A stretch of 4,098 bases of DNA from a virus. Taxonomy: Duplodnaviria > Heunggongvirae > Uroviricota > Caudoviricetes. The stretch is from IMG/VR virus record IMGVR_UViG_2778261347_000018; one strand, given 5' to 3'. Of this stretch, positions 3,001 through 4,098 are shown one piece after another. The position numbers are program-made. Each line of letters begins with the position of its first letter. The first letter of the stretch is position 1.

Positions 3001-4098
3001 CAATTACACTCCAGGACCTTTCAGGTGAATGCCACGAATGAAGAGCTAACCGTTGAGTGTACGATGAATGCCGCTAAATGCCGCATGGTATCCGCTGCAT
3101 TACAGCCAGTGTGTTGAGCGACCTTATTATTCATGCGCGGTATTGTCGCCGTATTCCTGCATTAACAGAGACCGCAGCCCGACCGGGAGAATCCTCTGCG
3201 CGAGTGTGCGGGGATAATCAAAAACGATACACACCGGGGTTTACCGCGTTAACGGAGCGCGGCGTTGTCCCCTCATGGTCGCTGGTCCGGTGCGATGGTG
3301 GAAGAAGCCGGATGTTTATCACTATTAATTGATAACACAGAAATGGATTCATTGATTTTCAGCACGTTTTTGTATTCGTATTATTGAACATCTGTTTATT
3401 TTACTTTTAACATATTGATAATAAAAAGAGCTGTAAATCTTTAGATGAGTCGATTTTGTCCGGGGAAGTTCAAATGGATTTTATGCTGACGGTTTCTGGT
3501 GTGGTTATCCTGTCCATTGCTTATACTGCAGATAAATATGGCTGCCATTTGTTATCACGTATTGGCGCTTATTGCTCGTTGATGCTGATTTTCTCGTCGC
3601 TTTTTTTTGAGTAAGTTATATTAATTATAACAAATAATTTTCTGTGTTTTTTCAGGCTATCCCGTCAGACGGGAAGCCTGTACTGCCGGGGGACGAATGG
3701 AAAACTGATGTGTCCGGTAACTGTGTGTTCTGTGAACACCATGTTACTTAATTATGTAATTCATACCCGAACGCTCTGTTGACAGCCTTCTTCTGCAGGC
3801 TTCAATAACCCACGCTGAAAAGTTACCGGAACCTTTATGTTCAAGGGCGATATTGATCTGTTCAATCATGTGATTGGGGAAACGGATATTGCGGGTTGTG
3901 GTTCTGCGGGTCCGGTTTTTCGATGACATATTTATTTCCTTTACTGATTGCCATATGACGGGGATTTTACATGGCTGAGCTTCGTACACTCCAGAGCAGA
4001 ATCAAAACACTGAATACCCGACGGGTGAATATTCTGAAGGGTGAACAGCGTCGTGTCAGTGGCAGTGCACGTGTTTCCCTCAAGCGTCATATCTGGCT

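What the first reader, a model, noticed from the sequence alone, without database searches (positions are those of the whole stretch)
3744..3970. Small basic RHH-like protein divergent from the next module across only 41 bp
The YlcI/DUF3950-like protein has an N-terminal Arg/Thr-rich tail followed by a motif (RNIRFP...FSAWVIEACRRRL) that looks like a ribbon-helix-helix DNA-binding fold. Its promoter must share the 41-bp gap with the divergent downstream gene, which suggests autoregulation or control of that gene. The function of this family is, to my knowledge, uncharacterised.
Basis: partly seen in the sequence, partly recalled or inferred. Interest (0 to 1): 0.35.

Follow-up and report, generated by a model that had tools for sequence, protein, structure and literature searches.

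The report
Small ribbon-helix-helix prophage protein YlcI
This is a real, strongly conserved 61-residue gene (YlcI/DUF3950) of lambda-like prophages that very probably encodes a small ribbon-helix-helix DNA-binding repressor, but nothing shows that it controls the neighbouring gene across the 41-bp gap.

Summary
A 61-aa, net +8 protein is encoded at 3744-3929 (-). Its ATG lies exactly 41 bp from the ATG of the next + strand gene, an HNH endonuclease that opens the packaging module of an E. coli lambdoid prophage.

It is a YlcI/YnfO (DUF3950) protein under strong purifying selection (dN/dS 0.03-0.10). Several weak but concordant lines support a ribbon-helix-helix (RHH) fold.

Family context supports a repressor role:
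- ylcI is the last gene before the packaging module in all 76 viral loci where the upstream gene could be read, always antisense to the late operon. Phage lambda has an unannotated copy 199 bp from its right end.
- Elsewhere the family sits mainly in phage-satellite-like islands, facing the main operon across repeated palindromes.
- Members most like the window protein carry TTGAT-N4-ATCAA about 75 bp upstream in four unrelated gene neighbourhoods.

HNH most likely belongs to the late operon and needs no promoter here. The gap holds two back-to-back ribosome-binding sites, and this allele keeps only a half-site of the palindrome.

A satellite protein fuses this domain to the DNA-binding end of the prophage's small terminase, which keeps a packaging role open.

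Verdict: new member of a known kind, moderate interest.

The parts
3744..3929 (-). ylcI/ynfO-family gene (DUF3950), 61 codons plus stop
   Evidence: ORF. RefSeq CDS in a 100% identical genome. Pfam, NCBIfam and PHROG matches. dN/dS 0.03-0.10.
3894..3929 (-). Codons 1-12: basic Arg/Thr-rich N-terminal arm (MSSKNRTRRTTT)
   Evidence: Read from the sequence. Low to moderate pLDDT in the model. RHH proteins such as Arc use such arms for extra DNA contacts (background knowledge).
3876..3893 (-). Codons 13-18, RNIRFP: predicted DNA-reading beta-strand of the RHH fold
   Evidence: I15 and R16 are invariant and F17 nearly invariant across the family. hhalign places NIRFP on Arc NLRWP (P 0.0033). The segment is extended and unpaired in the monomer model.
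3765..3875 (-). Codons 19-55: helix 1 (19-32), G-S-G-N loop, helix 2 (37-55)
   Evidence: AlphaFold2 model with H19-32 and H37-55. N36, F37, S38, W40, V41, A44 and C45 are invariant or nearly so. Named Foldseek matches are almost all RHH proteins.
3937..3941 (-). Shine-Dalgarno AAGGA of ylcI, 7 nt before the ATG
   Evidence: Read from the sequence. An aggaaa-like element is kept in diverged HNH-type loci.
3930..3970 (.). 41-bp gap between the divergent start codons; holds both ribosome-binding sites
   Evidence: The length is identical in 17 HNH-type loci. No consensus promoter lies in it.
3960..3964 (+). Shine-Dalgarno GGGGA of the HNH gene, 6 nt before its ATG
   Evidence: Read from the sequence. 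It is GAGGA in L008 and L013. This explains why the HNH-proximal half of the gap is conserved.
3964..3969 (-). TAAAAT, the only -10-like hexamer in the gap (candidate only)
   Evidence: Conserved in the window and in L008, L013 and L083. It has no good -35 and was not reported by the consensus scan.
4001..4005 (-). TTGAT half-site at -76 to -72 from the ylcI ATG, inside HNH codons
   Evidence: It sits where the left half of TTGAT-N4-ATCAA sits in lambda-type loci (-73 to -75). The second half is missing. This is a hint, not a demonstrated site.
3971..4098 (+). 5' end of the HNH endonuclease gene (121 aa in full), first gene of the packaging module; cut by the window end
   Evidence: RefSeq annotation of the identical genome, followed by terS, terL and an HK97-type capsid gene. 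phrog_589 HNH endonuclease, E 8e-45.

Best explanation
The gene encodes a small dimeric ribbon-helix-helix (Arc/CopG/MetJ-type) DNA-binding protein.

Proposed mechanism:
- Two RNIRFP strands would pair into a beta-ribbon that reads the major groove of a short palindrome.
- The basic N-terminal arm and the N-terminus of helix 2 (G-S-G-N-F-S) would hold the DNA backbone.

Proposed expression and role:
- It is an independent, moron-like unit, like lambda bor. It is transcribed from its own promoter against the direction of the late operon, probably in the lysogen.
- It most likely represses its own promoter, and possibly other targets, by sitting on a palindromic operator.
- Relatives in phage-satellite-like islands appear to do this at a divergent promoter region facing the island's main operon.

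What is shown and what is inferred:
- Shown here: the gene is real and under purifying selection, its position is conserved, and palindromes travel with the family.
- Shown by a paper: the K-12 copy is transcribed.
- Supported but individually weak: the RHH fold.
- Inferred: dimerisation, DNA binding, repression, and expression in the lysogen for this allele.
- Not identified: the operator and promoter at this HNH-type locus.
For: Fold:
- AlphaFold2 model (mean pLDDT 71) has an extended segment at 13-18, then helices 19-32 and 37-55.
- Foldseek top hits in PDB are almost all RHH proteins: StnY/CopG family, NikR, ParD, Arc, MazE9, HicB, NikA, TacA, with rmsd 1.6-2.4 A over 36-39 residues. Named hits in BFVD are also mostly RHH.
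- A family profile's best PDB sequence hit is a CopG-family RHH, E 0.047.
- hhalign against Arc gives P 0.0033 in the expected register.
- There is a weak PHROG match to HicB-like proteins, E 0.014.

Selection: dN/dS is 0.03-0.10.

Orientation and expression:
- The gene is antisense to the late operon in all 80 viral loci and in lambda.
- The K-12 ylcI transcript overlaps ybcW in at least 50% of RNA-seq samples (PMC12288877).

Operators:
- Satellite-like islands carry 2-3 copies of a 10-14 bp palindrome upstream of the gene. The palindrome differs between protein subgroups.
- TGGTAC(G/C)TACCA occurs at about -46 and -12 in four loci whose leftward cargo genes differ.
- For the subgroup closest to the window protein ([KR]NIRF[PS]), TTGAT-N4-ATCAA lies at -70 to -77 in four unrelated neighbourhoods: the lambda right end, between sopB and pipD in Salmonella, a copCD-yebY locus, and a fimbrial/hsdM locus. 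The half-sites are kept while the spacer varies.
- The fimbrial/hsdM case was a prediction made before its DNA was fetched.
- Lambda's 48.5 kb holds only two N4 sites.

Repressor-like position:
- In one island the gene is followed by an Mrr + M78 (ImmA/CapP-like) peptidase, the usual partner of a cleavable repressor.
- In another island a leftward promoter-like site abuts the palindrome.
Against: - Every fold comparison is individually below significance: Foldseek E > 0.2, and no Pfam RHH model matches the window protein.
- The beta-strand is not formed in the monomer model, and a dimer could not be modelled.
- At this locus no operator is visible. There is no TTGAT-N4-ATCAA in the window or in 18.8 kb of the identical prophage.
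- None of the HNH-type loci has the palindrome, and 21 of 61 lambda-type loci carry a one-mismatch version.
- No consensus promoter was found for the gene here, in lambda or in satellite L002.
- The strand-to-operator correspondence is not strict. A KNIRF member downstream of cdtABC has TGTTTAAACA instead.
- No binding or expression data exist for this allele.
Confidence: 0.55

Rival explanations
1. Packaging accessory. YlcI binds DNA in or near the cos region and helps or modulates terminase recognition, or protects cos in the prophage. It would be part of the packaging machinery rather than a transcription factor.
For: - ylcI is the last gene before the packaging module whatever the terminase type: HNH + P27-type terS, Nu1-type, or others. 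In lambda it starts 199 bp from the right end.
- Satellite proteins (P0217, P0193, P0222-P0226) fuse a DUF3950 domain to the first ~53 residues of a Terminase_2 small subunit.
- In P0217 that part is 64-66% identical to the N-terminal DNA-binding end of the window-type prophage TerS. That is closer than to the satellite's own TerS, at 53%.
Against: - The gene is antisense to the late operon that makes the packaging proteins.
- Family members occur where there are no packaging genes at all: the sopB-pipD, copCD-yebY, fimbrial/hsd and tRNA-Sec island loci.
- In satellites the gene sits next to the int-alpA end, facing the replication operon, not next to terS.
- The lambda palindrome lies about 125 bp from the right end, outside the part usually assigned to cos (coordinates; extent of cos from background knowledge).
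- The adjacency may simply mark a mosaic boundary. C-terminal tails and upstream regions recombine independently.
Confidence: 0.15
2. Phage-satellite cross-talk. The prophage protein acts on, or is mimicked by, the paralogous RHH proteins of satellites that parasitise this prophage type. It could form mixed dimers or compete for operators, and so tune satellite induction or interference.
For: - Outside Escherichia prophages most family members lie in int/alpA/primase islands.
- One such island is inserted in the terL gene of a prophage carrying the same ylcI-HNH-terS module, and it carries both a stand-alone DUF3950 gene and the RHH-TerS fusion.
- RHH proteins are obligate dimers (background knowledge).
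- E. coli genomes that have this region carry a median of 2 and up to 9 copies.
Against: - Satellite and prophage proteins share only about 35-45% identity and have different palindromes.
- There is no evidence of any interaction.
- Many hosts of ylcI-bearing prophages, lambda in K-12 for example, work without such satellites.
Confidence: 0.12
3. Orphan antitoxin-like or protein-binding RHH. The fold serves to neutralise a partner protein rather than to regulate transcription.
For: - Many RHH proteins are antitoxins; ParD, HicB, MazE9, VapB and TacA are among the structural matches.
- There is a weak HicB-like PHROG hit.
- One relative faces a gene whose N-terminal sequence looks SymE-toxin-like by eye. 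This was not tested against any family library.
Against: - No co-directional partner ORF follows or precedes the gene in the window. The nearest - strand ORF of at least 30 aa is 195 nt away and overlaps an annotated + strand gene.
- The most conserved residues are in the putative DNA-reading strand (I15, R16, F17), not in a C-terminal toxin-binding tail. That tail is the most variable part.
Confidence: 0.06
4. The function lies in the antisense transcript, not the protein. Transcription of ylcI against the late operon acts as an excludon or roadblock.
For: - ybcW-ylcI is listed as a convergent excludon in K-12.
- No intrinsic terminator follows the gene.
Against: - Strong purifying selection acts on the amino-acid sequence while synonymous sites are saturated.
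- Protein motifs are conserved across genera at 35-50% identity.
- RNA folding around the gap is no better than for shuffled sequences.
Confidence: 0.04

Closest known systems
Arc and Mnt repressors of phage P22 (RHH, immI region)
   Same: - Size of about 53-83 aa, a basic N-terminal arm, and a beta-strand motif N-[IL]-R-[WF]-P followed by two helices. hhalign puts NIRFP on Arc NLRWP, and Arc structures are among the Foldseek matches.
- They are phage-encoded repressors acting on short symmetric operators at closely spaced promoters (background knowledge).
   Different: - There is no detectable pairwise sequence similarity by BLASTP, and no Pfam Arc or RHH model is matched.
- The genomic place differs: the right end next to cos, not an immunity region.
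- No antirepressor-type target is identified.
CopG/RHH_1-type plasmid and chromosomal autoregulators (e.g. StnY, PDB 9kkd)
   Same: - It is the best PDB sequence-profile hit (E 0.047) and the best Foldseek hit.
- Both are small autoregulators binding pseudo-palindromes (background knowledge).
   Different: - The scores are marginal.
- DUF3950 has its own invariant signature (IRF...NFSAWV.EAC) and a long Arg/Thr arm.
Lambda bor and lom morons
   Same: - Like bor, ylcI lies between Rz and cos and is read against the late operon; bor is annotated on the - strand at 46,459-46,752.
- K-12 ylcI is transcribed in an uninduced cryptic prophage.
   Different: - bor encodes an outer-membrane lipoprotein with a host phenotype, whereas YlcI looks like a DNA-binding protein.
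- Neither its own promoter nor a terminator has been identified here.
Switch repressors of phage satellites and their protease partners (SaPI Stl, ImmR-ImmA, CapH-CapP)
   Same: - In the int/alpA/primase islands, DUF3950 genes face the main operon across repeated palindromes.
- One relative is followed by an M78 (ImmA/CapP-like) peptidase fused to Mrr_cat.
   Different: - Those repressors are helix-turn-helix proteins.
- In Gram-negative PICIs the described master regulator is the activator AlpA (PMC11773190). No RHH repressor was mentioned in the papers read.
- The window gene itself is in a prophage, not a satellite.
RHH antitoxins (ParD, HicB C-terminal domain, MazE9)
   Same: Fold-level matches and a weak HicB-like PHROG hit.
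   Different: No adjacent toxin gene, and the C-terminal tail is variable.

Membership tests
Pfam PF13132 DUF3950 / NCBIfam NF041551 YlcI_YnfO_N / phrog_949 | Score above the curated model cut-off | tested here: met
   Pfam 70.9 bits against cut-off 25. NCBIfam 35 bits against cut-off 30. phrog_949 E 2e-32.
Ribbon-helix-helix superfamily (Arc/MetJ/CopG) | Strand, helix, loop, helix topology in about 45 residues | tested here: inconclusive
   The AlphaFold2 monomer model has both helices (19-32, 37-55) after an extended 13-18 segment, with pLDDT 74-83 in the core. The strand is not scored as beta because its partner chain is absent. Named Foldseek matches are nearly all RHH, but with E > 0.2.
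Ribbon-helix-helix superfamily (Arc/MetJ/CopG) | Sequence relationship to known RHH proteins | tested here: inconclusive
   Profile against PDB: CopG-family 9kkd, E 0.047 with A1 but E 1 with A2. hhalign against Arc P 0.0033; against CopG 0.13. No Pfam RHH model matches the window protein; RHH_6 reaches 0.092 for one relative.
Ribbon-helix-helix superfamily (Arc/MetJ/CopG) | Obligate dimer with an intermolecular two-stranded beta-ribbon | not testable with these tools
No multimer prediction is available.
Ribbon-helix-helix superfamily (Arc/MetJ/CopG) | Sequence-specific binding to short symmetric or repeated DNA sites | not testable with these tools
   Indirect only: subgroup-specific palindromes upstream of family genes. 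None is found at this locus.
Type II toxin-antitoxin system (RHH antitoxin) | Co-transcribed adjacent toxin gene | tested here: not met
   No co-directional neighbouring ORF in the window or in the RefSeq annotation.
Moron (autonomous lysogen-expressed unit inside a late operon) | Own promoter and terminator flanking the gene | tested here: inconclusive
   The antisense orientation is met. The consensus scan finds no promoter in the gap and no - strand terminator after the stop. One non-conserved promoter-like site lies at 4059 to 4031.
Moron (autonomous lysogen-expressed unit inside a late operon) | Expression from the repressed prophage | not tested
   Only literature on the K-12 homologue: ylcI transcripts overlap ybcW in at least 50% of RNA-seq samples (PMC12288877). 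No data for this allele.
   The neighbour is the first packaging gene downstream of the lysis genes on the same strand. The gap holds two ribosome-binding sites, no consensus promoter and no family palindrome. The partner gene changes between loci.

The most novel reading that the evidence does not exclude
DUF3950 RHH proteins form a regulatory family shared between lambdoid phages and the satellites that exploit them.

- Satellites would use paralogues as the repressor of their main operon.
- Satellites would also fuse the domain to a copy of the helper's small-terminase DNA-binding end, to occupy or redirect the helper's packaging site.
- The phage copy next to cos, present even in lambda, would be the counterpart. 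It would either be a cos-proximal DNA-binding factor that the satellites mimic, or a trans-acting partner that modulates satellite repression.
Probability: 0.12. Interest if true: 0.7.

Novelty: new member of a known kind. Interest (0 to 1): 0.4.

Why it matters
If correct, a 'domain of unknown function' becomes a small repressor family with candidate operators that can be tested at once. The domain occurs in most lambda-like prophages of E. coli, is missing from the RefSeq annotation of phage lambda itself (NC_001416), and probably corresponds to orfX in Salmonella SPI-5.

It also points to an undescribed regulatory layer in Gram-negative phage satellites, and to a possible terminase-decoy protein. 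For the window itself the result is modest: an ordinary small DNA-binding protein whose target at this locus is still unknown.

Tried and rejected
- PDB sequence search with the single protein found only a chance ribosomal-protein hit.
- BLASTP against Arc found nothing.
- Pfam scans of 20 family members at E up to 10 gave no consistent RHH family.
- The trimmed family profile (A2) against PDB ranked short Argonaute fragments above the CopG-family protein, all non-significant.
- PADLOC gave no defence-system match for the window protein.
- Rfam found no RNA family in the window.
- The promoter-like site at 4059 to 4031 (- strand) was rejected as the ylcI promoter, because its -10 is lost in L008 and L013.
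- The 10-bp pseudo-palindrome GCCATATGAC (3950-3959) was rejected as an operator. About 0.5 such sites are expected by chance in 41 bp (my estimate), and conservation there is explained by the HNH ribosome-binding site.
- The 25-nt inverted repeat around the gap was tested as an RNA structure and rejected on folding energy.
- The literature name 'orf-64' turned out to be lambdap73, a different lambda gene.
- The lambda ribosome-profiling paper could not be read.
- The 'transcriptional repressor' label on the Pasteurella Pmp7 hit belongs to an opposite-strand CDS, so it is not evidence.
- IHF and Dam sites were considered by eye as explanations of TTGAT-N4-ATCAA. They do not fit all the variants.
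Full report
**What is in the window.**

The 4,098-bp window is the late region of an E. coli lambdoid prophage. Positions 3300-4098 are 100% identical to chromosomes of O103, O26 and other Shiga-toxin-producing strains. 465 of 5,426 complete E. coli genomes hold at least 80% of that stretch, with a median of 2 and up to 9 related places per genome that has any.

Gene order on the + strand:
- class II holin (260-475)
- YdfR/DUF1327 (480-824)
- lysozyme (875-1408)
- a P22_AR_N antirepressor-like gene (1679-2248)
- Rz (2402-2869)
- two small hypothetical genes (2893-3117 and 3474-3614)

The finding follows on the - strand (3744-3929). After it, the + strand resumes with an HNH endonuclease from 3971. 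In the identical genome the HNH gene is followed by terS, terL and an HK97-type capsid gene.

**Checking the observation.**

- The gene runs from ATG 3929 to stop 3744 and encodes 61 aa.
- AAGGA lies 7 nt upstream of the ATG.
- The HNH ATG is at 3971, so the gap is 41 bp.
- RefSeq annotates exactly this 61-aa product as 'YlcI/YnfO family protein'.
- It passes the curated cut-offs of Pfam DUF3950 and NCBIfam YlcI_YnfO_N and matches phrog_949.
- The protein carries 12 K/R against 4 D/E.

It is a real, selected gene. Against lambda-type alleles, synonymous sites are saturated or nearly so while the protein barely changes. There are 27.5 synonymous and 8.5 non-synonymous differences over 53 codons, and dN/dS is 0.03-0.10.

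The library of 1.84 billion representative proteins holds only 106 relatives at E <= 0.001. Many of these are frameshifted nanopore reads of the same gene, so the family is narrow.

**Is it a ribbon-helix-helix protein?**

No single test is significant, but all point the same way.
- *Model.* AlphaFold2 on a 20-sequence alignment (mean pLDDT 71, 74-83 in the core) gives an extended segment at 13-18 and then helices 19-32 and 37-55. The strand cannot pair in a monomer.
- *Structure search, PDB.* Foldseek returns almost only RHH proteins: StnY (CopG family), NikR, ParD, Arc, MazE9, HicB, VapB, NikA and TacA. The rmsd is 1.6-2.4 A over 36-39 residues, but E is above 1.
- *Structure search, viral proteins.* Named hits in the viral library are likewise mostly RHH, with E above 0.2.
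- *Sequence profiles.* A family profile's best PDB sequence hit is a CopG-family RHH at E 0.047. This falls to E 1 with a trimmed alignment.
- *Arc comparison.* hhalign against Arc gives P 0.0033 and places N14-I15-R16-F17-P18 on Arc N11-L12-R13-W14-P15.
- *PHROG.* There is a weak HicB-like hit at E 0.014.
- *Conservation.* The invariant or nearly invariant positions are I15, R16, F17, I25, N36, F37, S38, W40, V41, A44 and C45. They fit a DNA-reading strand, a hydrophobic core, and the G-x-x-N/S turn that caps helix 2.

I put the RHH assignment at about 0.85.

**Context across phages.**

In 80 viral contigs the gene is always antisense to the late genes. Wherever the upstream gene could be read (76 of the 80), it is the first packaging gene.
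- In 17 loci the next gene is the HNH endonuclease, and the gap is exactly 41 bp.
- In the others it is a Nu1-type or another small-terminase gene, about 370-400 bp away, a distance that includes cos.

Phage lambda itself has a 64-aa homologue at 48,109-48,303 (-), 199 bp from its right end. NC_001416 does not annotate it. I found it because dozens of unrelated 'genomes' carry lambda spike-in DNA.

Upstream of the ATG, the HNH-type and lambda-type loci share no sequence. C-terminal tails are reshuffled independently of the upstream side. The gene therefore sits on a mosaic boundary.

**What the gap contains.**

The gap holds the two ribosome-binding sites back to back: AAGGA at 3941-3937 (-) and GGGGA at 3960-3964 (+). 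The HNH-proximal half is conserved between diverged HNH-type loci, and the HNH translation start explains that.

The consensus scan finds no promoter in the gap. Its one - strand hit, at 4059 to 4031, is not conserved. A conserved TAAAAT (3969-3964, -) is the only -10-like element.

The HNH gene follows the lysis genes on the same strand. By analogy with lambda, where the late transcript crosses cos, it most likely needs no promoter here. The ylcI promoter must therefore lie largely inside the HNH codons.

**Family outside Escherichia prophages.**

Among 43 loci with more distant relatives, in one-genome-per-species contigs, about 20 lie in islands with an integrase. Many of these also have a primase, an AlpA-like gene or both. 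Genera include Xenorhabdus, Klebsiella, Enterobacter, Pectobacterium, Serratia, Brenneria and Gilliamella. A further island of this kind was found in a Pasteurella record.

In the island read in full (L002), the DUF3950 gene is antisense between alpA and the main operon and diverges from that operon's leader. The gene calls and matches in the other islands fit the same layout.

The intergenic regions carry 2-3 copies of a 10-14 bp palindrome that differs between protein subgroups:

| Beta-strand motif | Palindrome | Where |
|---|---|---|
| STKKNIRFED | TGGTAC(G/C)TACCA, at about -46 and -12 | L002, L154, L138, L164 (the leftward cargo genes differ among these loci) |
| AKKNIRFP | TGTGCGCACA, three copies | L132 |
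| YKGIRFP | TGTTTAAACA | L133, L157 |

In one island a leftward TTGACG-18-TATCCT promoter-like site abuts the palindrome. In another the gene is followed by an Mrr_cat + M78 (ImmA/CapP-like) peptidase.

**The palindrome of the window's own subgroup.**

For [KR]NIRF[PS] proteins, TTGAT-N4-ATCAA lies at a nearly fixed distance from the ATG in unrelated neighbourhoods:

| Neighbourhood | Position | Spacer |
|---|---|---|
| Lambda right end | -74 | CTGC |
| Salmonella, between sopB and pipD | half-sites from -76 | TCAG |
| Citrobacter copCD-yebY locus | -76 | ATAA or GTAA |

I then predicted the motif for three further members before fetching their DNA.
- It was present at -70 in a new fimbrial/hsdM context.
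- It was present at -76 in the copCD-yebY context, which is not independent of the Citrobacter locus.
- It was absent downstream of cdtABC, where TGTTTAAACA occurs instead.

Lambda's whole genome has only two N4 sites. Shuffles of its last 3.5 kb give 0.055 exact sites.

Among the 61 non-HNH viral loci, 40 have the exact motif and 21 a one-mismatch form. None of the HNH-type loci has it. This count treats L010 and L022 as HNH-type, from their upstream sequence.

DUF3950 is the only gene shared by these neighbourhoods. The half-sites are kept while the spacers vary. The simplest reading is that the palindrome is the protein's operator. This is an inference; no binding data exist.

**What this means for the window allele.**

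The protein belongs to the TTGAT-N4-ATCAA subgroup, yet its locus keeps only TTGAT(TCTGC) at -76 to -72 (window 4005-4001), inside the HNH codons. There is no full site in the window or in 18.8 kb of the identical prophage. How this allele is regulated and what it targets remain open. It could act in trans on lambda-type copies in the same polylysogenic genome.

The K-12 homologue is transcribed in an uninduced cryptic prophage and overlaps ybcW (PMC12288877). That fits a lysogen-expressed, moron-like unit such as lambda bor, which lies nearby in the same orientation.

**The packaging link.**

P0217 (120 aa, E. coli, 39 contigs) and relatives combine a DUF3950 domain with the first ~53 residues of a Terminase_2 small subunit. 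In P0217 that part is 64-66% identical to the N-terminus of the window-type prophage TerS and 53% identical to the satellite's own TerS.

The carrier island in CP027459.1 is inserted 272 nt into the terL gene of a prophage with the same ylcI-HNH-terS module.

Together with the constant position beside the packaging module, this keeps open a role at cos, or a role in phage-satellite conflict. Three points weigh against it as the main function: the antisense orientation, the many family members in loci without packaging genes, and the position of the satellite genes at the switch end of the island.

**Literature.**

DUF3950, YlcI and YnfO appear only in gene lists. YnfO is listed among uncharacterised Qin prophage genes. 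The described master regulator of Gram-negative PICIs is the activator AlpA (PMC11773190), and no RHH repressor was mentioned in the papers read. SPI-5 orfX is probably the Salmonella relative, judged from gene order only. It rises threefold in a dksA mutant while sopB falls (PMC8726615).

**Verdict.**

- The RHH interpretation is supported.
- The proposed wiring through the 41-bp gap is not supported.
- The best explanation is a small RHH repressor made from its own antisense unit (confidence 0.55).
- The rivals are a packaging role, satellite cross-talk, an antitoxin-like role and an RNA-only role.
- Novelty: a new member of a known kind.
- Interest is moderate (0.4). It rests mainly on the family-level findings: candidate operators, the unannotated lambda gene, and the satellite fusions.

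Noticed in passing
L167 3110-3304 (- strand) = NC_001416 48,109-48,303: Phage lambda encodes a 64-aa DUF3950/YlcI homologue 199 bp from its right end. The RefSeq record does not annotate it. The 'orf-64' of the literature is a different gene (lambdap73).
   Followed up: yes
L087-L125, L141, L148: Dozens of non-enterobacterial 'genomes' and MAGs (Algoriphagus, Kitasatospora, Cohnella, Pedobacter, Nanosynbacter and others) carry this gene on contigs of about 3.55 kb or at the ends of 48.5-kb contigs. This is lambda control or spike-in DNA left in the assemblies. Two of them (L141, L148) were confirmed to carry lambda's bor, p78 and p79. It also explains the many frameshifted family 'representatives' in the protein libraries.
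   Followed up: partly
L002 (CP027459.1 3,713,563-3,725,925), junction near L002 8050: A satellite-like island is inserted 272 nt into the terL gene of a prophage with the same ylcI-HNH-terS module. The island has int, an AlpA-like gene, two DUF3950 genes, a D5 primase, its own terS and a capsid-like gene. The prophage terS there is cut to 61 aa.
   Followed up: partly
L002 6001-6363 (+), protein P0217; also P0193, P0222-P0226: These proteins fuse an RHH (DUF3950) domain to about 53 residues that are 64-66% identical to the N-terminal DNA-binding end of the helper-type TerS. They may be terminase decoys or packaging redirectors.
   Followed up: partly
L001 10038-10325 (HNH-terS intergenic region, just beyond the window): At least four copies of ATGTTAAC/GTTAACAT, one pair forming GTTAACATGTTAAC. 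These are candidate small-terminase binding sites of the cos region.
   Followed up: no
window 3883-3907 and 3996-4020: A 25-nt inverted repeat (19/25) is symmetric about the centre of the 41-bp gap and links ylcI codons 8-16 with HNH codons 9-17. It is kept at 17-19/25 in seven HNH-type loci. Both arms are coding, and RNA folding of the region is no better than for shuffles (z +1.45 and -0.57).
   Followed up: yes
L126 4995-5171 (Salmonella enterica subsp. diarizonae): A DUF3950 gene lies between sopB and a downstream ORF that I take to be pipD (identified by eye, not tested). From gene order it is probably the SPI-5 gene called orfX in the literature. TTTGATTCAGATCAAA lies 77 bp upstream.
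   Followed up: partly
L177 about 4853-5029 (+), Pasteurella 'phage' Pmp7, OR544138: A 10.7-kb record with integrase, primase, terS, terL and HNH looks like a satellite. It has an unannotated DUF3950 ORF antisense inside a CDS annotated 'transcriptional repressor' (4435-5109, -), whose 5' part may be over-extended.
   Followed up: partly
L002 about 5470-5505, and the equivalent place in L132-L158, L138, L164: A conserved GC-rich hairpin (GACGCCCTGCG...CTGCGGGGCTTC) followed by a ...GTGGTTAGA... motif lies in the leader of the leftward island operon, between the palindromes and the first gene. No Rfam family matches it.
   Followed up: no
L138 4962-6543 (Buttiauxella, next to tRNA-Sec): A DUF3950 gene is followed on the same strand by a 449-aa protein with Mrr_cat and M78 (ImmA/CapP/RmrA-like) peptidase domains. 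This looks like a repressor-protease pair with a nuclease, perhaps a defence or island-induction module.
   Followed up: partly
window 1679-2248 (+): An antirepressor-like gene (P22_AR_N plus ORF11CD3 domains) and a 49-aa hydrophobic ORF (2245-2394) sit between the lysozyme and Rz genes, splitting the lysis cassette.
   Followed up: no
window 3653-3680: An imperfect GC-rich hairpin (CAGGCTATCCCGTCAGACGGGAAGCCTG) lies between the 46-aa gene and the ylcI stop. A T-run precedes it on the + strand, so an A-run follows it on the - strand. It is therefore not a canonical terminator for either strand.
   Followed up: no
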